A DNA stretch of 49,461 bases from a virus (taxonomy: Duplodnaviria; Caudoviricetes). Shown piece by piece: positions 12,508-40,409 of the stretch (positions are counted from its first letter, which is position 1; each line of letters begins with the position of its first letter). The DNA lies in the IMG/VR virus record IMGVR_UViG_3300037760_000064, positions 1 to 49,461 of that record; one strand, 5' to 3'. Made by a program: the position numbers and the translations under genes. Below the pieces are notes generated by a model, which searched no databases, had not been told where the DNA came from, and saw only the letters and a list, made by a program, of their open reading frames with translations.

Positions 12508-12711
12508 TCAGCACGTCGCACCCCCGACCAGCCGGTAGTGCCGCCGCGTCCAGTCCCACGCCGAGGGCCAGTCCGGCTCCGTGTGGGAGGTGTGCCAATG
12601 CCCGCGGGTCGGGTCGAAGTCGTCGATCTCGATGCGCACAGCGCCGTGATCGGCAAAAATGTGGTAATGCGGGAGTGACGCGTGCTGGCTGTAATGGTCG
12701 GTCTGGATCAT
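12508..12711 (-). CDS. Hypothetical protein
   Basis: TAATG coupling to the Tas-like gene. Confidence 0.45.
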   Translation of the reverse strand: MIQTDHYSQHASLPHYHIFADHGAVRIEIDDFDPTRGHWHTSHTEPDWPSAWDWTRRHYRLVGGATC

Positions 12712-13913
12712 TACGACGGCTCCTCGTCATGTTCGGCGGCAGCAGCCCCGGCGCCACGTATGTGGGCGTCGGAAGGGCGTTGGCCGGGGCCGCTGCCTGT
12801 CCGGTGGACGCGCCGGGTCTCACGCCACAGCGCTTTCAGGACTTCCTTTGAGGTGATGCGCAGCGCGTCGGCGTGGCGGTGCCCGTCAGACCACGGCGTG
12901 CCGGGCTGGGCTGGCTTCCCGGATGGGCCGCAGCGCACGCACTCCACGTCGTGCATCCGGCCTTCGGTGGCTGCCTTGCGCTTGTCGTAGATTTCGCGGT
13001 TGCCGGCCTTGAGCATCGACTCGGCGATGTTGTAGGCGCGCATCTTCGCGGCGGTGGACCAGTTGGCCTGCTCGCCTCGTCGGCGCCTCTGTCCCGGCTT
13101 CAGCCCGCAATATCCCCACAGCTCTGACGGGGTTCGGGGTCGGTCGTGCAGGGTGTTCCAGTACGGGTCGCCGATCGCGGCCAGCAGCCGGGCTGCCTGC
13201 TTCTCCCCGACCCCGCGCTGCTCCTTCACCCACGCGCCGAGCGGGTGCTTCCGCATCGCCCGGTTCAGGTTCAGCGTCGCCTGGTGTTCCAGCTTCGCGA
13301 TCCCGTCGACGACACCGGCCAGGCGCGCCACGTCGGGGTGCGACTCGTCCAGCCCGAAGCCGCGCTGCCCGCCGTCCTTGTCCACCCCCGTGCGGGTCAG
13401 CTGACGCAGCCGGTTCTCGTTCGCGATGCGGGTACGTTCCAGGTCGTCGAGGACGTCGGCGAGCAGCGCGAGAGTGGGGTCCGCCAGCGGCTCGGTTATG
13501 GGCACCGTCCAGTCAGTGGCTGGCGGACCCCACGAGGGTGCGACAACGGCGAGATGGGAATGGGCATCGTGTGGTTTTTGGCCGTTGTCGCTGCTTGAGC
13601 CCCCGCCGACGCGGCGAAGATGGGCGTCGAACTCGGGATGGTCGGCGGGGATGTTTGGCGGCACCTGCGTAGCGACCATGGGTTGCGGCCGTGTCGTGGC
13701 GGGTGCCGTGTCTTGCCCCGCACCGACGACTGCTGAATGGGCGTCGTTCGTCATCTGGCCGGTGCGGGAGTTTGGACCTGCCGACGACGGCAGTTGTTCG
13801 GGCGACGCAGCATCGTTGGTCGCCGGCAGGTGGTCCGTACCCGCAGCGACGTAGGCCAGCTGGGTGTCGTGGTCAGCATGGTCGCTGCGGGTAGTCAGTG
13901 TTGGGCGGCTCAT
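12711..13913 (-). CDS. tasA: TasA-like protein: IS110-related coiled-coil + Nop RNA-binding domain, no nuclease domain. The ORF also spans the guide array.
   Basis: LADVLDDLERTRIANENRLRQL coiled coil; HPL..W....GVGEKQAARLLAAIGDP...SELWGYCGL...WS...K...Y.IAE...Y..RK...GHRH..A.R...K..L..LW. No DEDD RuvC, no HNH, no IS110 catalytic SG. TIGR-like units at both ends. The true start is uncertain (13913 or ~13505). Confidence 0.8.
   Translation of the reverse strand: MSRPTLTTRSDHADHDTQLAYVAAGTDHLPATNDAASPEQLPSSAGPNSRTGQMTNDAHSAVVGAGQDTAPATTRPQPMVATQVPPNIPADHPEFDAHLRRVGGGSSSDNGQKPHDAHSHLAVVAPSWGPPATDWTVPITEPLADPTLALLADVLDDLERTRIANENRLRQLTRTGVDKDGGQRGFGLDESHPDVARLAGVVDGIAKLEHQATLNLNRAMRKHPLGAWVKEQRGVGEKQAARLLAAIGDPYWNTLHDRPRTPSELWGYCGLKPGQRRRRGEQANWSTAAKMRAYNIAESMLKAGNREIYDKRKAATEGRMHDVECVRCGPSGKPAQPGTPWSDGHRHADALRITSKEVLKALWRETRRVHRTGSGPGQRPSDAHIRGAGAAAAEHDEEPS
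12738..12797 (-). ncRNA. Single downstream TIGR-like stem-loop guide unit (unit 8)
   Basis: ggcagcggccccgg CCA acgcccttc CG acgc CCA catacgtgg CG ccggggctgctgcc. Confidence 0.85.
13474..13893 (-). ncRNA. Stem-loop TIGR-like array, 7 dual-spacer guide units (period 58-62 nt)
   Basis: Every unit is a unique 10-15 bp stem closing CCA-N9-CG-NNNC-CCA-N9-CG (unit 2 has CCG at the second box). Units at 13838-13893, 13776-13831, 13717-13768, 13659-13708, 13601-13650, 13540-13591, 13474-13533. Confidence 0.88.
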
Positions 13914-16689: not shown

Positions 16690-16839
16690 TGCTGAGCTGA
16701 GCGAGCCGAACACCCCCAATATCCCGGATTTCTGGCGCTGAACGGGGCCCGCGATGCTGAGCGGATTCGCTCAGCATGCAGGTCAACGCCACAATCCGGT
16801 GCTGAGCGGCCACTTAGCACTCAGCTGGCCCGCTCAGCA
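16690..16839. repeat. Cluster of GCTGAGC(G) direct and inverted repeats downstream of traB
   Basis: Copies at ~16691, 16696, 16756 and 16801 (direct) and 16768 and 16831 (inverted), plus degenerate ones. Confidence 0.65.
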
Positions 16840-18896
16840 GAAACCATCGCCTCGAACTCGGTGTCGCGGGCATCCTCGTCACCATCTGCGTCAGTTGCGG
16901 ACACGTGCAACTGGCGCCGGGTCACCCCTTGTCCTGATGCCACCTCTCGTGGCTTGGCCGGATCCCAGACGACTCGCGGCTCGATGCCGATCTCGCGCAG
17001 CATCGCCCCCACCGACCGGGCGTTCAGCGCGCCGTAGGTTTGCTGACGCAGCGCGGCAAGTCCGTCAGCGAGGTCGGCTAGGTGGATAGCGTCGGCGTTG
17101 CCGATGACCTGACGACAGTCGGCCAGGAAGTCGACCTGTTGCAGCGTGTCGGTGATGTCCTCCCCGGCTGCGTAGCCCGTCAGCCGACCCTGCGCCTCAC
17201 GCACGGCGCGGGCACGTAGCGCGATCTTCTCCGACCGCACGCCATCGAGGCCGTAGACGGAACGCACAATTTGGGCCTCGGCGCCCTCCGCGCGTAGGTA
17301 GCCGAGCCCCTTGTCCTCATAGGCGAAGACGGTGGCGTCTATCCCCGAGTTGTACGCTCCGGTACCAAGGATGGAATCATTGGCCCCCCATCCCATGACC
17401 TTGAGGCAGAAACGGACCACGGCGTTCGCGGAGATAGCCGTCGGGATGCTGTTGGCGTCGGGCTTCTGGGTGCCGAAATAGGAGTGAATACCGACCGCCG
17501 GGCCACGTTTTACCAGGTCAGTGCAGATGTAGATGAACTCGTCACGGATCGTCTTACTGGAATGCTCCATCCAAACTTGCACCTCATCTGTCAATAGCAA
17601 TATGGGTCCAAGATTCAGTTGTCGCATATTCGCGATCTGATCATTGACCTTATTCTCCGGACATAGCGCACGATTCTCCTCAGCTATTTTCCGGATTACT
17701 TTGATACGGCGCCGCATCTCTTTGTGTAGGTCACGCATCTGGGCGAGCTGAGTTTCGATGTCCTCCGGCTCGTCACCGACGCCGTAGCCGTGCGCCACCA
17801 GCGACAGCGGCCCGAAGTCGCCGGTTCCCTTGAGGTCGTAAGCGTAGATGATCGTGCGCGGGTCCAGGGCGAATACCAGCCCGAGCTGCCGCATCACGAA
17901 TGTCTTGCCAGTCCTCGGAAGACCTCCGATCACCCCGGACGTATAGGCCAGAGTGAGCGCTACCCAGTGGCCGCGCTGGTCGGTGAACATCGGCACCGCG
18001 TCGAACACGTTGACCTGTCCCTTGCTCATGAGCGGCCAGGGCCGCTGCCGAGCGGTCGATACCGGCTCGTCAGCGACATACAGCTCCAAGTGCGCCTCAT
18101 GGCGCTTACCACGGGTGGGCCACACGGTGCCGAGCTCGCGGCGCAGCGCCGCGGACAACTGCGGCCGCTTCTCAATGACCTTGCCAGCTGTGACACCGGC
18201 CGGCAGTTCTAGTCCGACTTGGTACCCGCCAGTGGTGCGGGCGACGTCGTGCAGCAGACCGATCGACTCAGCATCTTTCATCCCGGCGATACCGAGAGTG
18301 CACAGCGCCTCGCGCACCATGGGCGCCGATACCGGCGGCGGCGCCCCATCGACCAGCGGTACCGCGTTCAGCAGCCGCTTGTCACGCGGCCGGCCGGCCC
18401 AGCCGAGTACCAGCAGTACCAGCACCGACACCGCCCAGAACAGCGCCGGCGATACCAAGAGCCAAACGATTGCGATACCGATACCGATCATGGCAATGAT
18501 GGCCCCAAAGGCGATCTGCCGGTTGCGGATCCGGTCCTTGCGGGCCTGTTCCAGTCGCAGCCACACCTCGGTCTCGCGCTGCCCGGCGTGGTGGCGTTGC
18601 AGCCCGCGGGTCTCCTCGTCGAGCATGGCCCGCCACAGCCACGCCACCGACCTGCCCACCCCACGTGGGCTCCACTTTAGTAAACGGGCCACATACACGG
18701 GCAGCCACAGCAGATGACGGACCAGAGTGTGCCGCCAGCGGCGGCTGGTCCTGCGGACGGTGGTGCCGAGCTCGCCGCCGCGCATCCAATCAGCCACCAG
18801 CGGTGGGTGGCTGGTATCGCTGGTATCGGTAGCGGGCATCGCGGCGGTATCGGTGGTGGTGTGGTTCTGGGCGTGGTCGGTGGTGCTGTTGGTCAC
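16821..18896 (-). CDS. traB: TraB-like FtsK/SpoIIIE conjugative DNA translocase
   Basis: Two N-terminal TM helices; Walker A GGLPRTGKT; YDLKGTGD; Walker B LLLTDEVQ; RGPAVGI...TQKP; C-terminal winged-helix-like region. GTG start coupled to the upstream stop. Confidence 0.88.
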   Translation of the reverse strand: MTNSTTDHAQNHTTTDTAAMPATDTSDTSHPPLVADWMRGGELGTTVRRTSRRWRHTLVRHLLWLPVYVARLLKWSPRGVGRSVAWLWRAMLDEETRGLQRHHAGQRETEVWLRLEQARKDRIRNRQIAFGAIIAMIGIGIAIVWLLVSPALFWAVSVLVLLVLGWAGRPRDKRLLNAVPLVDGAPPPVSAPMVREALCTLGIAGMKDAESIGLLHDVARTTGGYQVGLELPAGVTAGKVIEKRPQLSAALRRELGTVWPTRGKRHEAHLELYVADEPVSTARQRPWPLMSKGQVNVFDAVPMFTDQRGHWVALTLAYTSGVIGGLPRTGKTFVMRQLGLVFALDPRTIIYAYDLKGTGDFGPLSLVAHGYGVGDEPEDIETQLAQMRDLHKEMRRRIKVIRKIAEENRALCPENKVNDQIANMRQLNLGPILLLTDEVQVWMEHSSKTIRDEFIYICTDLVKRGPAVGIHSYFGTQKPDANSIPTAISANAVVRFCLKVMGWGANDSILGTGAYNSGIDATVFAYEDKGLGYLRAEGAEAQIVRSVYGLDGVRSEKIALRARAVREAQGRLTGYAAGEDITDTLQQVDFLADCRQVIGNADAIHLADLADGLAALRQQTYGALNARSVGAMLREIGIEPRVVWDPAKPREVASGQGVTRRQLHVSATDADGDEDARDTEFEAMVSAERAS

Positions 18897-19645
18897 GCCG
18901 CCGACTCCTGGGCCGATCGCGAGCCGTTGGCGGACGGCTGGTAGTGCCCGTTGAGTACCAACCTCCGCAGCTGTATCGCCGTGCTCTTCGAGACGCTCAA
19001 GGCGGATACCAGTCGAGTCGACGACATGTCTTGCAGACCGCGCTCGTAGACGGTCCCCAGCAGGGCGAGGACGTGGGGGCTCGGGGGCCGGCTCGCCGAT
19101 GCGGCAGCGGTCGCAACGCCTACCGGTACCGGCGGTGGTGGCGGGGCGGAGATGGCCGGCGAGTCCGCAGAGGAGCATGGCTGGGAACCTGCCGCGTGGC
19201 GGTCGCTGGTACTGCTCCATGGCGCATCCCTGGTGATGATGTGGACGACGAGGCCGACTGTGATCGCCGGTACCGACCCGACCGCGGTCACCACGACCCA
19301 GCCCGGCACCAACAGCCCGGTACTGATCAGGTGCGATACCGCGTTCCCCGCCACCGACGCGGCGATGGCACCCACCGATACCGACGCGGCGGTGCGGGAC
19401 CGTGACCTGCGGTACTCAGTGAGAGCAGCGGCGGCCAGGGCGTCGATGGACAGGGGTAGCAGCGGCGACGTCCACACCGGCCAACCAGCATGTATCGCCA
19501 GGTCGCGGAGGAAGACGAAGCTGGCGAGTACCGCCGCTGTGGCCGATACCGCGATGAGGACTCGACGCCACCAGATGATCACAAGACGGTACTGTACCAG
19601 CAATACCAGTGATACTAGTATCGAAAGGGTTGAGATGAAGAGCAA
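18893..19645 (-). CDS. DUF2637/SpdA-like multi-pass membrane protein with C-terminal HTH (plasmid/AICE spread protein)
   Basis: AAVLASF..LRDLA...GW.....LLPLSID...SVAGN..H...V..VP; Pro-rich linker; STRLVSALSVSKSTA HTH-like end. Confidence 0.75.
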   Translation of the reverse strand: MLFISTLSILVSLVLLVQYRLVIIWWRRVLIAVSATAAVLASFVFLRDLAIHAGWPVWTSPLLPLSIDALAAAALTEYRRSRSRTAASVSVGAIAASVAGNAVSHLISTGLLVPGWVVVTAVGSVPAITVGLVVHIITRDAPWSSTSDRHAAGSQPCSSADSPAISAPPPPPVPVGVATAAASASRPPSPHVLALLGTVYERGLQDMSSTRLVSALSVSKSTAIQLRRLVLNGHYQPSANGSRSAQESAA

Positions 19646-19649
19646 GTAG

Positions 19650-19880
19650 CTAGGAAACTCGGAATGTGCCCCTCACCGGGAACGTCTCGACACGGTGCTC
19701 CTCGCGCAACAACTGGAGCGCCGCGCGAACGGTGTTTCGACCGACGTCATACCCGGCTTCAAGTTCGCCTTCGGATGGCAACTTCTCACCGATCGCGATC
19801 TCGTTCGCATCGAACTTCGCGCGCAGTACCGCAGCGAGCTGCCGATAGAACGGCTCACGGCTCCACTTGTCGATACTCAC
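19650..19880 (-). CDS. GntR-family winged-helix regulator (Kor-like)
   Basis: PFYRQLAAVLR......GEKLPSEGEL...YDVGRNTVRAALQLL..E..V.T...RGTF. Confidence 0.9.
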   Translation of the reverse strand: MSIDKWSREPFYRQLAAVLRAKFDANEIAIGEKLPSEGELEAGYDVGRNTVRAALQLLREEHRVETFPVRGTFRVS

Positions 19881-20151
19881 GCCGATATCATACGGGACCA
19901 CCCGTACCACTAGTACCGATACCGATCTCGACAACATCGGTCAGGCGCTATGTTCCGACATGGGCAGTCTCAGCAACGATGAGCGCCGAGCCGTGGTGGT
20001 TGTCCTTGGAGAGTCGGCGCCGGACGAGTTGCACGCGTTCACGATGGCGCTGGCTATTACGGCTCGACATTGCCCAGAGCACTTCCACCTCTGGGATGAC
20101 GAGGTAGAAGAAATCATGGGCGGAGAGCTTCCCTGGGAACGGGAATCGTAG
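19867..20151 (+). CDS. Hypothetical protein (start probably internal, e.g. ATG 19960)
   Basis: ORF divergent from gntR; C..H motif, acidic C-terminus. Confidence 0.35.
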   Translation: MSILTPISYGTTRTTSTDTDLDNIGQALCSDMGSLSNDERRAVVVVLGESAPDELHAFTMALAITARHCPEHFHLWDDEVEEIMGGELPWERES

Positions 20152-20192
20152 CTAATCCTTAATGACCTCCTCGTCGTCGGCGGTACCAGGCG

Positions 20193-21566
20193 TCACTGCT
20201 CGATGGCGATCAGGTCGACCATCCGCTGTAGCCCGTCACGCATCAGGCGGTCATCGACGTGCTGGTAGCCGCGGGTGGTCGTCACTGACGAGTGGCCGAG
20301 GATCTGTTGCACGGTGTGGCCGTCGACGCCGGCCTCGTGGAGCAGGGATGCGGCCGTGTTGCGGGCCTCGTGGACGGTGACGTCCCGAGCACCGACGAGC
20401 TTGAGCAGGCCGTCCCAGGTGGCGGTGTCATCACTCGGGTCGATCGGCCGGCCGTCGGGTCGCGTCCACACCAGTCCGTGCGGGTTGGGCTCATCCTCGA
20501 TGAGCTCGAGTCTCAGGCGCAGCGCGGCCTTCAGCGGCGGAATGATCGGGACAACACGCCACCCGGCCCGGCTCTTCGGCCGGATGAGGCAGAGCCCACC
20601 ATCGAGCCGCCGAAACTCGAAATCTGCACGGACGTCGAGCTGACACTGAGGACACGACCCCGCGCGCTTCCGTCCGCACGACCACGCCCCGTCAGGGGTG
20701 CGATCCCCGCAGCCATGCCGGTACTTGATGCGCTGCAGCTCCCAGGCGACCTCTAGTCGAGGTGCCGGCGCTCCGGTGGCAGGGTCTACGTAGTCCAGGT
20801 GCAGGCAGTCGAGAGTGAGCCCTAGGGTCTCGCCCTGCCGTGTGCCGGCGAGCAGCGCCGCGGCCCACCGGGAGCCGATCCGGTCGACGAGGACGCCACT
20901 CCCGTCAGCCAGGGCGGCGCGACGGAGGACCGCCCTCGCCTCCGCTGTCGTGAGCCCCTCCCGCCTGCTTGGCGCTTTCCGGGGCGCGTCAAGCAATGTG
21001 GCGACGTTGCGGGCGACAAGCGGCGGTTGCTCGCGCATAGCGTCATTTAGCGCCCTGCGCAGGATGGCGTGGGCCTGTAGGACCGTGGTCGACGACCTGG
21101 TAGCACCTAGCCGCTTGTATGCGGTTCTGAGGTGGTGCGACTGGAGCGTGTCAAGCTGGTGCTTGCCCAGTTGCGGAATGAGCATGGTCTGGATCTTCGA
21201 GCGGTAGCCGTCGCGGGTGGACGGCTTGAGCCGCTTGTAGGCGATCTCGTCGATCCAGTAGCGCAGCCACTTCTCGACGGTCATGCCCTTCTGTGGCACG
21301 TCGCCGTGCTCGGACACTCGCTGCTTCAAGTCGTCGAGCTTCTTCTTGGCGACCTTGTAGTCCTTGGCGGTGATGACGCGGCGCTGCCGTTTGCCGTCGT
21401 ACCAGCCGAGGTCGACGGCGCCGACCCACAGGCCGCGGCATCGATGCTTGGGGCGGATGCGCCTGGGGCCGTCCTCCGTCTGTATCTCCTCGGCCGGTGG
21501 ACACCCGTAGACCGACTCGCAGCGCTGATAGAGGCCACCTTCACCCTTGTTTCGACGCTTCGGCAT
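20193..21566 (-). CDS. int: Tyrosine integrase
   Basis: KRRNKGEGGLYQR arm-binding start; catalytic R (GTRQGE), K (PKS), HEARN, LGHS, Y (GYQH). Confidence 0.97.
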   Translation of the reverse strand: MPKRRNKGEGGLYQRCESVYGCPPAEEIQTEDGPRRIRPKHRCRGLWVGAVDLGWYDGKRQRRVITAKDYKVAKKKLDDLKQRVSEHGDVPQKGMTVEKWLRYWIDEIAYKRLKPSTRDGYRSKIQTMLIPQLGKHQLDTLQSHHLRTAYKRLGATRSSTTVLQAHAILRRALNDAMREQPPLVARNVATLLDAPRKAPSRREGLTTAEARAVLRRAALADGSGVLVDRIGSRWAAALLAGTRQGETLGLTLDCLHLDYVDPATGAPAPRLEVAWELQRIKYRHGCGDRTPDGAWSCGRKRAGSCPQCQLDVRADFEFRRLDGGLCLIRPKSRAGWRVVPIIPPLKAALRLRLELIEDEPNPHGLVWTRPDGRPIDPSDDTATWDGLLKLVGARDVTVHEARNTAASLLHEAGVDGHTVQQILGHSSVTTTRGYQHVDDRLMRDGLQRMVDLIAIEQ

Positions 21567-25976: not shown

Positions 25977-27695
25977 ATGACGATGACTGTGTACCGGTAC
26001 GGGCTGCCCTCCTGGGTGGTCCTGCCGCAGGTCGTAGACGAGCAGCTGTGGCTGGCGCACCAGCTGCGTAACCAGCTGGTGCAGCTGGAACACGAGCATG
26101 AGGAGCAGCTGGCCGCACTCATGTCGTCGTACCCTCAGGTCGCGGAGGCGGAGCAAGCCCGGGAAGCGATAGCTGCCCGGACCGCCGAACTGGAAACCAA
26201 GGTGGCCCAGGAGCGGGCGCGGCAACGGACCCGCTCACCGAAACATCCCGCTGTGCGTGAGCTCGCAGAGACTCGAGCACAGCTGAAAGCGGCCCGCGTC
26301 GATGTGCGCGACCGCAAGGCGGCAGTCCGGGACGCCTCCGCCGGGGCCAAGAAGGATCTGCGTGACCAGCTGAAACAGCGCCAGAAAGAGCTGTACGGCG
26401 AATACTGCCAGACACGTGGACTGTACTGGGCCGTCTACAACGATGTCGCAGATCACCATCGCGTCGCGGCGAGACGTGTGGTGGCGAAACGCTCAGCTGG
26501 GCAGCCCGCCCAGCTGCGATATCACCGGTGGGACGGGTCGGGATCGCTAGCCGTACAGCTGCAGCGGGCCCAGACGGACCCGCAGCGCACCCCCGACCGT
26601 ATCGCCGACGGCGAGCACGGCAAGTGGCGCAACGTCCTATCGATCTCGCAGGGCACCCGCCACGGACAGCTGCGTATGCGGGTCGGTGCCGAACATGTCA
26701 CACTGCCGATAATCGTCGACCACGACATGGACGACGACGCGGACATCACAGGCGCACGCCTCACAGTCAGACGAGTCGCCGGGCAGCGGCGCGTACACCT
26801 GACAGTCGCCGCCAAGCTCCCCGACCCGGCACCAGTCACCAGCGGCGCCACCTTGGCTGTGCACTGTGGCTGGAGGCGTGAGGACGACGACTCTATCCGC
26901 GTCGCCACCTGGAGAGCAGGACAACCAGTCACAGTGCCGGTCGACCTCAAAGACATCGTCACCCAGGACACATCCACCAGCGGGATCGTCACGATGCCGG
27001 TGGCGTGGCGGGACCGCATCGCCCACTACACCACCGTGCAAGCCAGCCGTGACACCCGGCTAGAGCAGATACGAGATCGCGTCGTCCAGTGGCTCACGAC
27101 ACACCCACAGGACGACATCGACCCTGCCAGCGTGGCTAAATGGCGCAGCCCAACGCGGCTGGCGAAACTGGCATGGCAGTGGCACCACGACACTCCCGCA
27201 GGTGGGGACCAGATCACACGAGAGCTGATGTCATGGCGCCGCTGGGACCGGGTCAGGTGGGAGCAGGCAGCGCACGGCACCCAGAGGGCGACCGGCCGGC
27301 GTGACGACGCGTGGCGCCGGTTCGCCGCCTGGGTAGCGTCCACAGCAGTCGTGGTGGTGGTGGACGACACAGACCTGGCCGCACTGACCAGACAGATCAC
27401 CCAGGAGCCGACCACGATCCCCACCCAGGTCACACAGATCGCCGCGCGGCAACGCGTCGACGCTGCTCCTGGTGGTCTACGCCAGGCGGTGCGATCTGCC
27501 GCCACCCGTGACGGAGTCACGGTCGTAACGGTCCCGTCGAAAGGCCTATCGGGCGACTGCTATCGCTGCGGGCACAGCGGCAACGACGTCACCGGCCACG
27601 TGATCTACTGCGACAGCTGCGACAAGCCCTACGACCGTGACGCATCCGCGACACTACACATGATCCGACGTGCGAGCGGTCACTTGACCACTTGA
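25977..27695 (+). CDS. cas12m: Cas12m (type V-M, formerly V-U1) CRISPR effector with non-canonical RuvC
   Basis: 572 aa. QLWLAHQLR, LYGEYC...LYWA.YN.V..HH, RWDGSGSLAVQLQR and DADITGA motifs as recalled for Cas12m. RuvC-I LAVHCGWR (H for D), RuvC-II VVDDTD (D for E), AAPGGLR, Zn finger CYRC/CDSC, RuvC-III YDRD. Adjacent CRISPR array. Confidence 0.92.
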   Translation: MTMTVYRYGLPSWVVLPQVVDEQLWLAHQLRNQLVQLEHEHEEQLAALMSSYPQVAEAEQAREAIAARTAELETKVAQERARQRTRSPKHPAVRELAETRAQLKAARVDVRDRKAAVRDASAGAKKDLRDQLKQRQKELYGEYCQTRGLYWAVYNDVADHHRVAARRVVAKRSAGQPAQLRYHRWDGSGSLAVQLQRAQTDPQRTPDRIADGEHGKWRNVLSISQGTRHGQLRMRVGAEHVTLPIIVDHDMDDDADITGARLTVRRVAGQRRVHLTVAAKLPDPAPVTSGATLAVHCGWRREDDDSIRVATWRAGQPVTVPVDLKDIVTQDTSTSGIVTMPVAWRDRIAHYTTVQASRDTRLEQIRDRVVQWLTTHPQDDIDPASVAKWRSPTRLAKLAWQWHHDTPAGGDQITRELMSWRRWDRVRWEQAAHGTQRATGRRDDAWRRFAAWVASTAVVVVVDDTDLAALTRQITQEPTTIPTQVTQIAARQRVDAAPGGLRQAVRSAATRDGVTVVTVPSKGLSGDCYRCGHSGNDVTGHVIYCDSCDKPYDRDASATLHMIRRASGHLTT

Positions 27696-32505: not shown

Positions 32506-33421
32506 CTACTGGACACCTTCACGCGGCTCGTCCTCATCCTCGATAACCAGCTCAACCCGAGCCTCGTCCACGATGTCATCGACAGCCTGCCGCGCCCCCG
32601 CCTCAGCAGCCGCCGTGATCTGCGCTGGGGTGAGCGCCTGCCCCCTCGCCAGCTCGGCCACTGTCGCTTTGAGCGACCCCAGCTCCGCCAGCTGAGCCAC
32701 GACGAGTGTGGACAGGCTCTTACCCGGCAGGATCGCCGTCTCCAGCACCGCCCGACGCGGCTGGGTGATGGACTTGTCATGCGACCACACCGCCTCGGCG
32801 ATGGCCTTGATCTCTGCTGGTGTCACGGGATCCTCCGGAGGTGTCGATGTGACGCCCGCGGCGATCTGTTTCGCACGGGCGATGATCTGCGGGATTTGCG
32901 CTATCCGTCGATCGCCGGGACAAACCTTCCCGCGGGCGCTGCTCCACACCTCGCCACCAGTAACCCGGCCCCCGTACCGGTAGCCCGCCCAGTTCCCGTC
33001 GATGCCTTGCCGGTGGTAGGCGACCCCGCGTGAGCCTGGTCGCGAGTTCGGTGCCATCACCAAAGGGATGCCGTGGGTCTTGTGCGCCCAGGCGAGGATC
33101 TTCGCGATCGCTTCGACTTGGGCCGGAGTGAAGCTCGGCACAGCGTGGCCGTCGTTCACGTTCCACGGCCGGAACTCCGGGCCGTGGTCGGCGTTCTCAA
33201 TCGCGATGATCCGGTGATTCCCGTTCAGATTCGCCGCCGAACGGTAGCGGGTGTCCCGTGACTGGTAGATCTTCCCCCCGCCGGACGTGGAGAAATGTGC
33301 AGCGTGGGCTGGTGCGAGCCCGACGATCGTGTGCTCAATGCACACACACCACGTCGTAGCGCTGTATCGGCGTCTTTGGTGAGTGTTCACCGAGCCAAAT
33401 CGCTTGTGGCATGCGGGCCAT
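32506..33421 (-). CDS. Endolysin, N-acetylmuramoyl-L-alanine amidase; frame interrupted by 7 nt at 33331-33337 (candidate translational bypass)
   Basis: GGAGGTG RBS + ATG 33421 gives MARMPQAIWLGEHSPKTPIQRYDVVCVH, then TGA G CAC, then TIVG..AHF....G.IYQ....AIEN...YHR...KVCPG amidase motifs. Confidence 0.85.
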
Positions 33422-33438
33422 ATCCATCACCTCCCGTT

Positions 33439-33567
33439 ATGCGGTACGGTACAAAGCGAGTCGCTAATGGCGAGACGAGAGCGGCGCTAGCCAAGGAGTT
33501 TGGAACTAGCTCCAGCAATGTCGAACACATCATCGCCCGTCGCCGCTGGAAGCACGTCGCTGACTAA
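33439..33567 (+). pseudogene. Remnant C-terminal HTH of an HNH homing-endonuclease-like gene
   Basis: GETRAALAKEFGTSSSNVEHIIARRRWKHV; AT-richer, antisense to the late operon, no nuclease domain. Confidence 0.65.
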
Positions 33568-33647
33568 GGGCACACGATGTCGTAGCGGGCCATCGCCTTG
33601 CGGGGGCTCTTCTCCCCTACCCAGAGGGCACCTGGCATTCTGGCCAT
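33564..33647 (-). pseudogene. Truncated first copy of the endolysin 5' end (27 aa)
   Basis: MARMPGALWVGEKSPRKAMARYDIVCP*, aligning with MARMPQAIWLGEHSPKTPIQRYDVVCVH. Confidence 0.8.
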
Positions 33648-36703: not shown

Positions 36704-39700
36704 CTACACCATCACCCTTCGCTGGGCGTCCGCTGCGTAGGTCAGCTCGCGACGGACAGTGGCGACCATCTCGTTCTGCGGAGCGACCACGGTGAGCGAA
36801 ATGTCAGCTGAGCCAAGCGCCCCGGCGGTCATGGTCGGGCCGACAGGGCCACCGGAGGCGAGTTGGTTGACCCGCGGGATTTGCATCTGGTTGATCGCGT
36901 GCATGAATTCGGTGCCGTAGTAGTCGTGGGCGGCCTTGCGCAGCATGAATTCGCCGTTGCTGGCCCAGATTGGGACGTGGTCGGAGGTTCCGGTTCCGGG
37001 GCCTTCGATGACACCGCCCCTGCCGAAGCGCATGTAGTTGCGCGGGTTCAGGACCCTGCCGCCTTGGCGGATCTCGAAGTGCAGATGCGGGCCGGTGGAG
37101 TTGCCGGTCGAGCCGACTGCGCCGATCCTGGCCCTGGCCGGGACGATTTGCCCGCTGCTCACATTGCGAGCGGACAGGTGGGCGTAGCGGGTTTGGAGAC
37201 CACCGGAATGGTCGATGTAGACGTGGTTGCCATAGGAGCCGCGCATGGTCATCGCACGACTCACCCGCCCAGCGCGGGCCGCGAAAACCGGGGTTCCGGT
37301 ACGGGCCGGCAGATCCTGGCCGGTGTGCCCGGGGTAGGACCCGACACCGCCGCCCCTGCGGTACGTGCCAGGGTTCAGCGGGGTCACCCAGCCACCGGAC
37401 GCCGCCCCACCACCAGAGCCACCACCGCCGCCGAAGAAGCTCGGCAAAAACGCCTGGAGCTTAGCTTTGATGGTGACTTCGATGTCGCGGACGTACTGCT
37501 TGAGCTTGAGGTTCGCCGCGGACGTGTCGACGGTGACCTTGGTGCCCTTGTGAGTGGGGACCTTCTCGTCTAATAGATGCCCGTAGTCGGTGAGGATCTG
37601 CTCCCACGTGACCTTGCCGGTGGCCAGTGCTGCGCTCAGCTTGTCAGCGGTTTCTTGCCCTTGGGTTCTGGCGATGGCCTGCCACAGCGGACCCGCCTCA
37701 GACAGCCTGAGGGCGAAGCCCTGTCCCGCTTCGGCGCCTCGGACGCCGAACGCTGCCTCCATGCGGGCGAGCTCAGCGTCGGTGCCGTTGGCTAGCTGCT
37801 CCACAAGATGAGCGCCCTCGGGGCCGAGCTCGGCCAGATGAGCCAACAGCCCAGCGCTGGCCCGACCGGCCAGGATGACCATGTTAATCTGCCAGTCCTG
37901 CTGCGCCTTGACCTGCTCCTCTAGAAGATCCAGGTACTCATCCAGCGTCAGTGTGACGTCGGTCGCGTAGTCCTCCCACGAGTCCGATGCGTCCTTAGTG
38001 GCATCGGCGGTGGCTTGGGCTGTGATTTGCTCCGCTTCTTCCTTGTCGGCAAGCCCCTGAGAGTAGGTCCCAAGAATGTCGACGAACTCGCCTGACGCCT
38101 CGGCCCACGAGTCGAGCATGTCCTGCGCGGCCTTCTCGGCATCATCGCCGGTCAGGCCGAAACGGACCGCAAGATCGGCCAGCGCATTGTCCAGCGGCTC
38201 GGCTGATTCGGCGGCGAGCTGGTTGTCGTTAGCAACCTGCTTGAGCGAGTCCTGGTAGCCGGGTAAACCCTTAATGAACGCGTCGGCCTCGTCGCCGGTG
38301 TGACCCAGCGCGTTGGCCATCACGATCGCCGATTCGGCAGCCTGGTCGATATGACCCGACTGGACCATGCTCGCTAGAGCGTTATCGAACGCCTCGATAG
38401 TCTCGTTGAACTCCTTCGCGTCCCTGCTCGCTTCAACGTTCGCGACACCAAACCCGGCGATACCAGCAACGGCATGGTCGAACCAGTTCCGATCACCGAG
38501 CTCCTGGATTTCGGTGGCCTGGCGGATGAGCTGGTCCAGAGCGACCCGCTTGGACGCGTCGTCAAAGTTGAGCAACGCCTGCGTCGCGTCGCCGACGCTT
38601 GGGGCAGCTTCCCTAGTCGCCTCCAGCAGGGCGTGCACGCCAGCGGCGACCGCGCCGAACATCGTCAGCTTGGCCGCCGCCGAGCCCAGGGTCATCAGCC
38701 CACCGGCGAGTACCGGAGAGGTGCGCGCCAAGCTGAGCATGAGGGTGTGCGCGGCCGCCAGCCGGGGGGCGAGCAGCAGGAACCCGCCGCCGAGCAGCGC
38801 CACGGTGCCGAGCAGTGTGCCGAGGACCGTAGCGGCGGTCTTGATCGGGCCTGGCAGGTCGGCGAAGAACCGCAGCAGGTCGGTGCCCGTCTCAACCACT
38901 GTGACCAGGGCGGGCAGCAGCACGCCACCGATGTCGATGGCCAGGTCGACGAGAGCGTTCTTGGCGAGTTGGATCTTCGCCTCGGATGTTTCGTAGCGCC
39001 GCTCGGCTTCCTCCACCAGGGCCGTGTTCTCGTCCCACGCCTGGTTGGCCATGCCGATCTGCTCACCGAGCAGGCTGCCTGCGGATGCCGTCGACAGCAG
39101 TGCACGCATAAGCCGTTGATCAGCCAGGCCAAGCTCATCGAAAACCGCACTCGTGGACTGTCCGGATTGCTGCATCCGACCCAGGCCCTCAACGAATGCG
39201 GCAATCGCATCCGCTCCATCCGTGCGAAACCTGGAGGAAAACTCGTCAACCGTGACGCCCGCTACCCGGGCAAAAACGTCAAGGTCATCGTTACCGTCCC
39301 GCACGGCATCACCGATCGCGGTGAACACCTTGGACAGGGCGGTTCCACCGGCCTCGGCCTCAACACCCACCGAGGTGAGGGTCGAAGCGAACGCAAACAC
39401 ATCCGCCTCGGACAGGCCCGCCATTTTTCCGGCCGCGGCGAGGCGGGTGGCCAGAGTGACGATCTCCGCCTCAGTGGTCGCCGAGTTGTTGCCCAGCTCG
39501 ACAATGGTTGAGCCCATCCGGTCCACGTCAGACGTAGCGGTGCCCATGATGTTCGCCATCCGGGCCAGCGCCGTGGCGGCCTCGGCGGCGGACAGGTTGG
39601 TCGTCTCGCCGAGGTCGATCATGACCTCGGTGAACGCCGCGACGTCGTTGACGCCGACGCCGAGCTGGCCGGCCGCTTCCGCCACACCAGCGATCTCGGC

Positions 39701-40090
39701 ATGCGTGGCCGGCAGCGTCGTGGCGAGATTCCGCAGCTCGGCTTCCAGCGCGGCCATCTCCGCGTCCGAACCCTCAACCGTCTTGCGTACACCGGCCCAG
39801 GCGGATTCCCAGTCGATCGCGGCCTTCGTCGCCAGGCCCAGACCGGCCAGGGTGGCGGCGCCGAACGCGACCAATCCGCGGCCGAGTTTTTCCATGTCGG
39901 CGGCGCGGTTCGCCGCCGCTTGGGCGGCTTCGTCGGCGAGCTGCTTATCCAGGCTCGCCGCGGCCAAGTCAGCCCGGCGGAGCTGGTCCTCCATCCGCAT
40001 CGTGGACCGACGGACGCGTTCGAGACCCGCTTCGAACTTCGCGGTCTCGGCGTCGATGGTGACTTTCAGATCACGGGTCGCCACCGTCAT
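36704..40090 (-). CDS. Tape measure protein (TP901-like) with C-terminal M23 peptidase domain
   Basis: 1128 aa, helical; WESAWAGVRKTV, LGNN.ATTE.EI, EAGGTA; HTGQD...YAHLS...GSTGNSTGPHLHFE. Confidence 0.95.
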   Translation of the reverse strand: MTVATRDLKVTIDAETAKFEAGLERVRRSTMRMEDQLRRADLAAASLDKQLADEAAQAAANRAADMEKLGRGLVAFGAATLAGLGLATKAAIDWESAWAGVRKTVEGSDAEMAALEAELRNLATTLPATHAEIAGVAEAAGQLGVGVNDVAAFTEVMIDLGETTNLSAAEAATALARMANIMGTATSDVDRMGSTIVELGNNSATTEAEIVTLATRLAAAGKMAGLSEADVFAFASTLTSVGVEAEAGGTALSKVFTAIGDAVRDGNDDLDVFARVAGVTVDEFSSRFRTDGADAIAAFVEGLGRMQQSGQSTSAVFDELGLADQRLMRALLSTASAGSLLGEQIGMANQAWDENTALVEEAERRYETSEAKIQLAKNALVDLAIDIGGVLLPALVTVVETGTDLLRFFADLPGPIKTAATVLGTLLGTVALLGGGFLLLAPRLAAAHTLMLSLARTSPVLAGGLMTLGSAAAKLTMFGAVAAGVHALLEATREAAPSVGDATQALLNFDDASKRVALDQLIRQATEIQELGDRNWFDHAVAGIAGFGVANVEASRDAKEFNETIEAFDNALASMVQSGHIDQAAESAIVMANALGHTGDEADAFIKGLPGYQDSLKQVANDNQLAAESAEPLDNALADLAVRFGLTGDDAEKAAQDMLDSWAEASGEFVDILGTYSQGLADKEEAEQITAQATADATKDASDSWEDYATDVTLTLDEYLDLLEEQVKAQQDWQINMVILAGRASAGLLAHLAELGPEGAHLVEQLANGTDAELARMEAAFGVRGAEAGQGFALRLSEAGPLWQAIARTQGQETADKLSAALATGKVTWEQILTDYGHLLDEKVPTHKGTKVTVDTSAANLKLKQYVRDIEVTIKAKLQAFLPSFFGGGGGSGGGAASGGWVTPLNPGTYRRGGGVGSYPGHTGQDLPARTGTPVFAARAGRVSRAMTMRGSYGNHVYIDHSGGLQTRYAHLSARNVSSGQIVPARARIGAVGSTGNSTGPHLHFEIRQGGRVLNPRNYMRFGRGGVIEGPGTGTSDHVPIWASNGEFMLRKAAHDYYGTEFMHAINQMQIPRVNQLASGGPVGPTMTAGALGSADISLTVVAPQNEMVATVRRELTYAADAQRRVMV

Positions 40091-40409
40091 CGCCGCCCCC
40101 GTTTCTGACCAGTCGGATATGAAGTCCGGGGGTTGATTTGGCGCCCTCGGCGTGGTCTTTGTGTGCTTGGCCGACCGCTAGGCAGCCCAGACACACGTAG
40201 GGTTCGGCCCGGTAGGCGTGCCGGTCTGCCACCCATTCCCAGTCGGCTGTGCCGCATTGCTGGCACGTCCCGTGCTGTTCGGCTTGCCAGCCGAGCGCTT
40301 TGACCTGGTCATCGATCGGCCACGCCAAGAATTCGCTGTGGGGGATGCCGCGGGGGGCGCAGTAGTCCAGCTGGGCACGCAGCAGAGGGTCGTGCCTTAG
40401 CCTTTTGGG
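40071..40409 (-). CDS. Tail assembly chaperone, -1 frameshift extension (gpGT)
   Basis: Slippery C CCA AAA at 40403-40409; the -1 frame reads RLRHDPLLRAQLDYCAPRGIPHSEFLAW... to 40071. Confidence 0.8.
   Translation of the reverse strand, partial: PKRLRHDPLLRAQLDYCAPRGIPHSEFLAWPIDDQVKALGWQAEQHGTCQQCGTADWEWVADRHAYRAEPYVCLGCLAVGQAHKDHAEGAKSTPGLHIRLVRNGGGDDGGDP

What the first reader, a model, noticed from the sequence alone, without database searches (positions are those of the whole stretch)
33325..33430. Candidate programmed translational bypass (7 nt) at the endolysin's active-site His
Seen: a strong RBS (GGAGGTG) and ATG 33421 give ...RYDVVCV-CAT(His) TGA G CAC(His) ACG ATC GTC GGG. Hopping from CAU over the stop to CAC, 7 nt downstream, yields YDVVCVHTIVG and a 302-aa amidase. 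The take-off and stop codons sit in a hairpin, GUGUGC-AUUGA-GCACAC. Known: T4 gene 60 bypassing uses matched take-off and landing codons, an adjacent stop and a stem-loop. Inference: recoding that could throttle lysin output. Alternatives are an inactivating 7-bp scar, or rescue from GTG 33390 (weak RBS, aberrant N-terminus).
Basis: partly seen in the sequence, partly recalled or inferred. Interest (0 to 1): 0.85.

Follow-up and report, generated by a model that had tools for sequence, protein, structure and literature searches.

The report
Nuclease cassette with lysin ribosome hop
Seven extra bases, including a stop codon, break this phage's only recognisable cell-wall-lysing gene beside the remains of a nuclease gene, and five other phage sequences have the same layout, so ribosomes likely hop over the gap, a rare decoding trick so far tested at the bench mainly in phage T4 and a Streptomyces phage.

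Summary
The 7-nt insert (CAT TGA G CAC, minus strand 33340-33331) is real: contigs from two independent studies bridge it with no differences. The cassette is a cut-off original lysin start (33647-33564), an antisense HNH endonuclease gene (mostly deleted here, intact in four relatives), a strong RBS, a 28-codon replacement N-terminus and the gap. I found six copies, in host lysins that are not one clade (AU p=0.0004, 4 hosts tested). Five read CAT-stop-N-CAC, using TGA, TAA and TAG. The sixth, in another lysin subfamily, reads ACC TAG TG ACC: 8 nt, one codon later, another frame. The replacement N-terminus is under purifying selection in the frame that ends at the stop. The best reading is a matched-codon stop-hop that restores the native amidase, like T4 mobA/gene 60 (0.6). 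The main rival is a split gene with reinitiation (0.2). The hairpin is weak evidence, GTG 33390 is not conserved, and nothing supports a throttling role. There are no expression data. Verdict: new variant of a known kind.

The parts
33570..33647 (-). Host's original lysin N-terminus (26 codons, cut after the Cys two residues before the conserved His; read-through adds one Pro, stop at 33566-33564)
   Evidence: the same kind of stub in L001, L032, L033, L093; L032's stub resembles the N-terminus of L024, which groups with its host lysin
33439..33567 (+). Remnant of the antisense HNH endonuclease gene: C-terminal HTH only, 42-codon ORF; start and nuclease domain deleted (469 alignment columns, junction near 33456)
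   Evidence: 83% identical over 35 aa to the L033 HNH C-terminus; HTH_28 E=9e-4, below the curated cut-off; alignment A1; full gene in L001 is PF13392 HNH_3 E=3e-17
33427..33435 (-). Strong Shine-Dalgarno sequence carried by the cassette
   Evidence: duplex with a recalled anti-SD of -16.8 to -19.6 kcal/mol in the five His-type copies and -16.3 in L093
33338..33421 (-). Replacement N-terminus, 28 codons, ending in the take-off codon CAT (33340-33338)
   Evidence: frame-0 pS 0.33-0.63 against pN 0.03-0.13 in 9 of 10 pairs (0.11 against 0 in the tenth); variable columns by codon position 3/4/16
33334..33337 (-). Stop codon TGA (33337-33335) plus one spacer base; with one His codon this makes the 7-nt gap
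   Evidence: TGA G in the window and L001, TAA G in L026, TAG G in L032, TAG C in L033
33331..33333 (-). Landing codon CAC; this His is invariant in the family and is inferred to be the first zinc ligand
   Evidence: His28 invariant in 101 of 101 aligned intact homologues; lies on strand 24-29 of the model
32506..33333 (-). Rest of the Amidase_2 endolysin (275 codons) with intact IAIEN, YHRQG and KVCP motifs
   Evidence: PF01510 30.5 bits, cut-off 26; phrog_1493 endolysin; motifs; an intact homologue folds like LysCS, AmiA, AmpD and PlyL
33343..33345 (-). GTG in the downstream frame, 8 nt before the stop: the possible reinitiation start of the rival model, and the start chosen by the database gene caller
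   Evidence: P0001 starts V-C-I-E; present in 5 of 5 His-type copies; SD duplex only -4.0 kcal/mol
33388..33390 (-).
   Evidence: GTG in 2 of 5 alleles, GGG or GAG in 3; SD -2.2 kcal/mol; in-frame stops downstream in L026 and L032
31123..31398 (-). Holin of the same lysis module (context)
   Evidence: PF16945 E=5e-14; phrog_443

Best explanation
The 7-nt gap is the right end of a mobile cassette (antisense HNH gene, strong RBS, replacement lysin N-terminus, gap) that sits at the conserved His codon of six actinophage-type amidase genes, and ribosomes likely cross it by a matched-codon stop-hop: peptidyl-tRNA-His would leave CAU at the stop, re-pair at CAC 7 nt on and make the native 302-aa lysin. 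Shown by sequence: the cassette's anatomy, its presence in unrelated host lysins, the variable left junctions, selection on the replacement N-terminus, and the rule 'codon X, stop, spacer, codon X' in 6 of 6 copies. Inferred: the HNH nicks near this site; the gap protects the invaded allele from its own nuclease, as reported for MobA; the hop happens; and a modest hop rate gives enough lysin. In the window the nuclease has since been mostly deleted and the gap has stayed.
For: (1) 5 of 5 His-type copies keep CAT, a stop and CAC, while the stop switches among TGA, TAA and TAG and the spacer between G and C. A neutral simulation scaled to synonymous divergence gives p=0.003-0.09 for keeping a stop and 0.007-0.10 for keeping a His codon. 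(2) L093, whose HNH is 58% identical and whose host is an HTMVG-type lysin, has ACC TAG TG ACC: another codon, length and frame, but the same rule. A hop is the only single mechanism that gives the native sequence in both types. (3) The +1-frame residue before the His would be E, K, R or S, whereas 115 of 118 intact homologues have I, V or L there. (4) The replacement N-terminus has pS far above pN in frame 0 and the reverse in frame +1; residues 1-30 are a confident part of the fold (pLDDT 94-96). (5) It is the only Amidase_2 in the record, and no other endolysin family was hit among the ORFs scanned. (6) The nuclease decays while the lysin stays open: deleted in the window, absent in L026. 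(7) The HNH lies beside 4 of 6 gap alleles in full and 1 as a remnant, and beside 0 of 61 intact loci. (8) The four host lysins tested are not one clade, AU p=0.0004. (9) Precedent: in the MobA family take-off shifts by one codon, pairs wobble and the stop varies (bioRxiv 2022.08.31.505936, sections 10 and 16); a 10-nt phiHau3 gap is bypassed in E. coli when a stop follows take-off (PMC10732093, sections 20-21).
Against: No expression data of any kind. The L093 gap also reads as a one-base stop/start overlap (TAG with GTG), which a two-base spacer gives by chance about 1 time in 16, and a native ATG lies 5 nt after the stop. All five His-type copies keep a GTG in the downstream frame 8 nt before the stop. 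One intact homologue of 118 (P0025) has Glu before the His, so a charged residue there may be tolerated. Matched codons could partly be target-site duplications (GCA..GCA in the window, ACC..ACC in L093). The known helper signals of gene 60 are weak or absent: fold z-scores -1.9 to +0.3, no take-off hairpin in L093, no mini-SD triplet before landing. A second CAC lies 2 nt after the landing codon in the wrong frame. L093 rests on one contig. The His-type alleles share ancestry, so they are not five independent events. The record is about 70% complete, so another lysin is not excluded.
Confidence: 0.6

Rival explanations
1. Split gene. Ribosomes stop after the 28-31-codon N-terminal piece and reinitiate nearby: at GTG 33345 in the His type, or at the GTG that overlaps the TAG, or the native ATG, in L093. 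The short peptide would complement the large piece in trans, as in the split nrdA/mobE case.
For: GTG in the right frame in 5 of 5 His-type copies; TAG/GTG overlap and a double stop in L093; this model also needs a stop and a selected N-terminal peptide; endonuclease-split enzymes that reassemble are described (bioRxiv 2022.08.31.505936 section 12).
Against: SD duplexes of only -4.0, -3.0 and -1.3 kcal/mol. The L093 large piece would lack the His invariant in 101 of 101 homologues. The His-type piece puts E/K/R/S where 115 of 118 have I/V/L. One His codon would be redundant, yet both are kept in 5 of 5. No conserved tails for reassembly were seen. The two types would need different start rules.
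Confidence: 0.2
2. Frameshifting instead of hopping: a -2 slip on UGU GUG, or a +1 shift at CAU-stop, joins the frames and adds 2-3 residues.
For: In the window, L001 and L033 a tandem -2 slip re-pairs perfectly on the GU repeat; the TGT GTG codon pair is in 5 of 5 gap alleles but 2 of 27 intact loci.
Against: GTA breaks the tandem re-pairing in L026 and L032. A -2 slip does not need the stop, which is kept. tRNA-His cannot re-pair at AUU (established pairing rules). L093 needs the other frame and shows no slippery run. The products put a charged or polar residue in a hydrophobic column.
Confidence: 0.09
3. Dead gene: the 7 nt are a repair scar of nuclease invasion, and the phage lyses with another enzyme or persists as a prophage.
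For: The insert is bounded by a 3-bp direct repeat; the phage has a tyrosine integrase; the record is about 70% complete.
Against: Purifying selection on the cassette-borne N-terminus; open downstream frames with intact catalytic motifs in the window, L001, L026 and L093; six copies in unrelated hosts; the nuclease is lost before the lysin; the same window allele is found in runs of 2020 and 2025.
Confidence: 0.06
4. DNA- or transcript-level repair: slippage at the 3-bp repeat or the (GT)n run restores the frame in a fraction of genomes or transcripts.
For: 3-bp direct repeat inside a palindrome and a short GT run.
Against: No indel variant is listed in the contigs of three runs (contigs drop rare variants, so this is weak). 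The repeat is only 2 bp in L033. A precisely excised allele would be cut again while the nuclease is active. L093 has no GT run at the gap.
Confidence: 0.05

Closest known systems
Phage T4 MobA element: gene 39 / mobA / gene 60 with the 50-nt translational bypass (Manning and Atkins, bioRxiv 10.1101/2022.08.31.505936; Bonocora et al. 2011, known to me only through that preprint and PMC5009743)
   Same: HNH gene inserted in a conserved essential gene; element-borne N-terminal replacement homologous to the host region; gap at the element's 3' end; take-off and landing codons read by one tRNA; adjacent stop of varying type; take-off shifting by one codon between lineages; variable 5' junction; loss of the nuclease with the gap kept.
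   Different: Target is an amidase endolysin of GC-rich, probably actinobacterial siphophages, not Topo2L of T4-like phages. The HNH is 189-191 aa (MobA 269-279) and antisense. The whole N-terminus is replaced, so the upstream stub is dispensable and has no conserved C-terminal extension. The gap is 7-8 nt (20-50 nt in the MobA family), with His or Thr instead of Gly or Asp, and no conserved UUCG hairpin, mini-SD or AU-rich tract.
UUA-linked bypass in the terminase of Streptomyces phage phiHau3 and the StrepC.1 and S. catenulae prophages (PMC10732093)
   Same: Short gaps (7-10 nt) in an essential actinophage gene at a highly conserved junction; the phiHau3 gap was bypassed in E. coli when UUA was replaced by a stop.
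   Different: Here the slow codon is a natural stop, not the bldA-dependent UUA; the gene is a lysin; the gap travels with an HNH gene; no developmental control is implied.
Synthetic 'stop hops' in E. coli (matched codons flanking a stop; passages of PMC5009743)
   Same: Same geometry: codon, stop, matching codon a few bases on.
   Different: Those were in-frame 9-nt constructs, and the review says no natural in-frame case was known; the gaps here are natural, out of frame and conserved.
Group I introns and HNH genes in staphylococcal endolysin genes (search listings only; details recalled)
   Same: Selfish nucleases invading lysin genes.
   Different: No room for a ribozyme in the cassette and no Rfam match at E<=0.1 in six loci; the frame is not restored by splicing.
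mobE insertion splitting nrdA in phage Aeh1 (as summarised in bioRxiv 2022.08.31.505936 section 12)
   Same: Intron-less HNH insertion in a conserved gene; model for the split-gene rival.
   Different: There the nuclease lies between two needed halves with conserved tails; here it lies upstream of a complete replacement N-terminus that abuts the rest of the gene.

Membership tests
MobA / gene 60 element | HNH endonuclease gene next to the gap | tested here: met
   full in L001, L032, L033, L093; remnant in the window; absent in L026
MobA / gene 60 element | Inserted in the topoisomerase II large-subunit gene | tested here: not met
   target is an Amidase_2 endolysin
MobA / gene 60 element | Element-borne N-terminal extension homologous to the host region | tested here: met
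   28-codon replacement N-terminus under purifying selection; 31 codons in L093
MobA / gene 60 element | Conserved C-terminal extension on the upstream fragment | tested here: not met
   stubs end in unrelated tails of 0 to about 18 residues
MobA / gene 60 element | Take-off and landing codons read by one tRNA | tested here: met
   CAU/CAC in 5 of 5, ACC/ACC in 1 of 1
MobA / gene 60 element | Stop or hungry codon 3' of take-off | tested here: met
   6 of 6: TGA twice, TAA once, TAG three times
MobA / gene 60 element | Conserved take-off stem-loop | tested here: inconclusive
   a stem encloses the gap in the five His-type folds, but z is -1.9 to +0.3; none predicted in L093
MobA / gene 60 element | Mini-SD 5-7 nt before landing and AU-rich gap of 20-50 nt | tested here: not met
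   gap 7-8 nt; no GAG/GGA/AGG/GGG at that spacing
MobA / gene 60 element | Sequence homology to the MobA protein | not tested
   no MobA sequence was fetched; the best GenBank phage matches are 36-40% identical HNHs of Gordonia, Mycobacterium and Brevibacterium phages (25 of 453 records listed)
MobA / gene 60 element | Bypass shown at protein level, and gap blocks self-nicking | not testable with these tools
   needs a reporter, mass spectrometry and a nicking assay
UUA-linked terminase bypass (phiHau3 type) | Rare UUA codon after take-off | tested here: not met
   stop codons in 6 of 6
UUA-linked terminase bypass (phiHau3 type) | Short 7-10-nt out-of-frame gap at a conserved junction | tested here: met
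   7 and 8 nt at the invariant His-Thr
Group I intron with homing endonuclease | Ribozyme core and intron boundaries | tested here: not met
   0 Rfam matches at E<=0.1 in 6 loci; the cassette is filled by the HNH, the RBS and the replacement N-terminus
Amidase_2 (PF01510) zinc amidase endolysin | Pfam score over cut-off and amidase fold | tested here: met
   30.5 bits against 26; Foldseek E about 1e-5, probability 1.0 to LysCS, AmiA, AmpD for an intact homologue
Amidase_2 (PF01510) zinc amidase endolysin | The His at the gap binds zinc | tested here: inconclusive
   invariant in 101 of 101 and on the first core strand; the ligand role is recalled from T7 lysozyme/AmpD-type amidases and was not shown by a residue-level alignment

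The most novel reading that the evidence does not exclude
An unreported family of intron-less homing endonucleases invades phage lysin genes and protects its own allele with a minimal 7-8-nt 'codon-stop-spacer-codon' gap. Ribosomes cross it with no dedicated RNA structure, and the element has rebuilt the gap on two different tRNAs (His and Thr). This would be the smallest natural nuclease-linked bypass and the first in a lysis gene, and would mean that stop-hopping is a cheap, re-inventable way for selfish nucleases to enter genes needed in small amounts.
Probability: 0.45. Interest if true: 0.82.

Novelty: new variant of a known kind. Interest (0 to 1): 0.7.

Why it matters
Programmed bypassing has few accepted natural cases (T4 gene 60 and kin, yeast mitochondrial byps, the phiHau3 terminase), and a 2022 preprint still called the gene 60 cassette unique. 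Six natural alleles with three stops, two take-off codons and two gap lengths give a very small test set for what a ribosome minimally needs in order to hop. Each fits in a short reporter insert. The case also shows a way for a homing endonuclease to enter an essential gene without an intron, an intein or a split protein, by bringing a whole new N-terminus. In practice, gene callers mis-start such lysins (the database protein for this window begins at V-C-I-E), which matters for lysin mining. Unchecked notes from this scan describe like cassettes in helicase, terminase, polymerase and tail genes. If those hold, the lysin case is one member of a wider unpublished class, which raises the value of the class and lowers the uniqueness of this case.

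Tried and rejected
Assembly error: rejected. GTG 33390 rescue: rejected. Invertible segment between the 9-bp inverted repeats at 33327-33335 and 33570-33578: rejected, because they are the two halves of the palindromic I-V-C-V-H-T-I coding and no strand-change joint was listed. Group I intron: rejected. Phage-encoded suppressor tRNA: 0 tRNA genes in the window. Searches for more copies that found none: viral pattern scan, (1 hit, L001's own contig; 4 hits: L001's contig and 3 chance matches; 5 hits: the L001 and L093 contigs and 3 others, of which the two read are not the element and one was cut from the output; 11 hits: the L093 contig and 10 near-identical AT-rich non-lysin matches); single-HNH viral scan, (4 loci; L017 read and has no lysin; L018 and L019 not read). 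Among 80 HNH loci only the L001 contig and L093 had a lysin. HNH profile in 401 + 401 genomes: 0; gap pattern in 401 genomes: 0; these three searches had no positive control. Lysin profile in 401 genomes: 12 with a match, no gap allele. Protein searches for +1-frame products found only the window's own (120 of 822 hits seen). GenBank phages hold only distant, annotated lysins (20 records, under 60% identity; not read at the junction). Sequence search of the PDB with the family profile: 0. No RNA holder listed. One X3 contig joins across the cassette, but at depth 2, with 26 letters on the short side and 8 differences it is probably another organism's empty allele and is not used. Promoter scan: none found. 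No complex prediction was run, because halves of a split gene tend to pass whatever the biology. Literature: six searches showed no report of a bypass or of such a cassette in a lysin gene; most subscription journals are not held.

Full report
Observation. On the minus strand an SD (33435-33427) and ATG 33421 open 27 codons, followed by CAT (33340), TGA, G, CAC (33333) and a 275-codon frame; a hop gives 302 aa. Contigs of runs X2 and X3, from studies other than the possible source X1, bridge the site with no difference. The downstream frame is an Amidase_2 endolysin two genes upstream of a holin, in a 66% GC temperate siphophage-type record with terminase, portal, capsid, tape measure, integrase and WhiB genes. 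Of the nine closest lysins found in bacterial genomes (62-69% identity), five are in Nocardioides, one in Aeromicrobium, two in unclassified actinobacterial MAGs and one in a Dehalococcoidia MAG, so an actinobacterial host is inferred. It is the only PF01510 match in the record, which is about 70% complete; no other endolysin family appeared among 44 ORFs scanned with Pfam and 58 with PHROGs, apart from an M23 domain on the tape measure protein.

A second, cut-off copy of the lysin start lies upstream (33647-33564), and between the two starts the plus strand encodes a 42-aa HTH fragment. Locus L001 shows the complete form: original start ending at the His codon, a 191-aa antisense HNH_3 endonuclease, RBS, replacement N-terminus and the same 7-nt gap. 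The L001 allele is also present in contigs of X1, so it is not independent of that run. In the window 469 alignment columns of the nuclease gene, with its start and catalytic domain, are missing. One metagenome pattern scan gave two more complete cassettes, L032 and L033. One of 11 genome loci, L026, has the RBS, replacement N-terminus and gap but no nuclease and no stub. An HNH profile scan found L093, whose nuclease is 58% identical to L033's and sits in a lysin of the HTMVG subfamily with the same layout. Among 64 distinct lysin loci from protein searches (79 loci before removing duplicates), 2 have the gap, 61 are intact and 1 is cut off; the HNH matched only L001. The protein database holds 7 HNH clusters at 73-99% identity and three more full-length ones at 52-54%, for most of which no DNA context could be fetched.

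The cassette is mobile. Left junctions differ: after Phe (L032), after Cys (window), inside or at the His codon (L033, L001), and about two codons before it (L093). The stubs differ from each other while the replacement N-termini are alike; L032's stub resembles the start of L024, which groups with its host in the tree. On a quick tree of 25 catalytic domains the four gap hosts tested (window, L001, L026, L032) need four changes, and holding them together is rejected (AU p=0.0004). L033 was too short and L093 too distant to include; the 21 intact rows were picked after I had seen the 72-row tree, partly as near neighbours.

The gap allele looks alive. The replacement N-terminus has pS 0.33-0.63 against pN 0.03-0.13 in frame 0 for 9 of 10 pairs (0.11 against 0 for L026/L032), the reverse in frame +1, and variable columns 3/4/16 by codon position. 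Its SD is strong in all six copies. In a model of an intact homologue, residues 1-30 have pLDDT 94-96 and the His lies on strand 24-29; the model matches LysCS, AmiA, AmpD and PlyL. That His is invariant in 101 of 101 homologues; its role as zinc ligand is recalled from this enzyme family. Downstream catalytic motifs are intact in the window, L001, L026 and L093. A caveat is that replacement segments can be re-copied from host genes, as reported for MobA, so part of the selection signal may predate the gap.

How the gap is crossed. The five His-type gaps read CAT TGA G CAC (window, L001), CAT TAA G CAC (L026), CAT TAG G CAC (L032) and CAT TAG C CAC (L033); L093 reads ACC TAG TG ACC. The stop changes identity but stays a stop; under neutral evolution scaled to the synonymous divergence this has p=0.003-0.09, and keeping the take-off His codon p=0.007-0.10, over eight parameter sets on a hand-set tree. 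The +1-frame residue before the His varies E/K/R/S, while 115 of 118 intact homologues have I/V/L (one each E, P, A; one further protein did not match the motif search). A hop from one codon to its match restores the native sequence in both gap types, which lie in different frames; no single frameshift does. GTG 33390 is absent from 3 of 5 alleles. A tandem -2 slip on the GU repeat is perfect in three alleles but broken in L026 and L032. The serious rival is reinitiation. A GTG lies 8 nt before the stop in all His-type copies, and in L093 the TAG overlaps a GTG by one base, which a random spacer would give about 1 time in 16. These starts lack SD sequences (-4.0, -3.0, -1.3 kcal/mol), and the L093 product would lack the invariant His and need a 31-aa peptide in trans. 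I put the hop at 0.6 and the split gene at 0.2.

The hairpin. It is predicted in the His-type folds, and the codon pair TGT GTG is in 5 of 5 gap alleles against 2 of 27 intact loci (shared ancestry inflates this). But z-scores are -1.9 to +0.3, L033 breaks the innermost pair, and L093 shows no take-off hairpin. I do not count it as a demonstrated signal. Nothing here supports regulation of lysin output. The simpler reading is that the gap shields the allele from the nuclease, as reported for MobA, and that a lysin tolerates incomplete decoding (inference).

Comparison with known systems. It works like the T4 MobA/gene 60 element but is not a member: other target, no conserved C-terminal extension, antisense 189-191-aa nuclease, 7-8-nt gap, no mini-SD. 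Of bioRxiv 10.1101/2022.08.31.505936 I read the abstract, the introduction, part 1 of 2 of the results and sections 10, 12 and 16. It reports take-off moving by one codon, wobble-matched pairs, UAG or UGA stops, variable 5' junctions and nuclease loss, all seen here. Of PMC10732093 I read the abstract and sections 19-21: 7-10-nt UUA gaps in Streptomyces phage terminases, with a junction peptide found in E. coli after UUA was changed to a stop. Of PMC5009743 I read 12 passages. Bonocora et al. 2011 was not available and is cited through these. Six searches (listings only for papers not named above) showed no report of a bypass in a lysin gene; the library lacks most subscription journals, and I opened no supplements (those of the preprint might list further cases). 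Three look-ups of this scan's earlier notes found nothing by sequence or for lysins, but 50 notes on HNH-linked bypass candidates, of which 8 were shown; they are unchecked and are not used as support.

Verdict. Observation confirmed; interpretation partly supported and extended. The mobile HNH cassette is shown with high confidence (about 0.9). The hop is likely but untested (0.6). New variant of a known kind; interest 0.7.

Noticed in passing
window 12711-13913 (-): ORF matches NCBIfam NF052498 TIGR-Tas RNA-guided endonuclease (224.7 bits, cut-off 100) over residues 148-366. The roughly 400 nt before the matched part show recurring CCCAT/GACCA motifs and may be a TIGR array; the repeat finder gave no clear family.
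   Followed up: partly
window 25977-27695 (+): 572-aa TnpB/Cas12-like protein: Cas12f1-like TNB domain over the Pfam cut-off, weak guided_TnpB match far below its cut-off. Long for a TnpB; no guide RNA was sought.
   Followed up: no
window 16821-21566 (-): Block with an FtsK/SpoIIIE-like gene, DUF2637 and a tyrosine integrase, like an actinomycete integrative element inside the phage genome.
   Followed up: no
window about 40409-40400 (-): The tail assembly chaperone ORF ends in CCC AAA AG, followed by a conserved small ORF (40074-40328): a probable ordinary -1 frameshift of the G/GT type.
   Followed up: no
L032 660-681, L033 about 1005-1026, L001 about 2858-2881; right arm only at window about 33449-33456: The HNH start codon lies in the loop of an inverted repeat (GTACAAAC..GTTTGTAC; imperfect in L001), which may repress its translation; the window's deletion ends at this repeat.
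   Followed up: no
window 33439-33567 (+): The HNH deletion leaves an in-frame ATG, so the HTH remnant is a 42-codon open ORF; no SD was seen, expression unknown.
   Followed up: partly
P0016, P0044: Intact lysins whose N-termini closely resemble the cassette's replacement N-terminus: either donors of it or alleles that lost the gap precisely. No DNA context was available.
   Followed up: no
P0025: Intact lysin with Glu directly before the conserved His, the only one of 118.
   Followed up: no
run X1; window and L001: Two different phages carrying diverged copies of the cassette occur in the same sequencing run and share a 45-nt contig across the gap.
   Followed up: partly
window 36704-40090 (-): Tape measure protein carries a Peptidase_M23 domain at residues 921-1016, a virion-associated wall hydrolase.
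   Followed up: no
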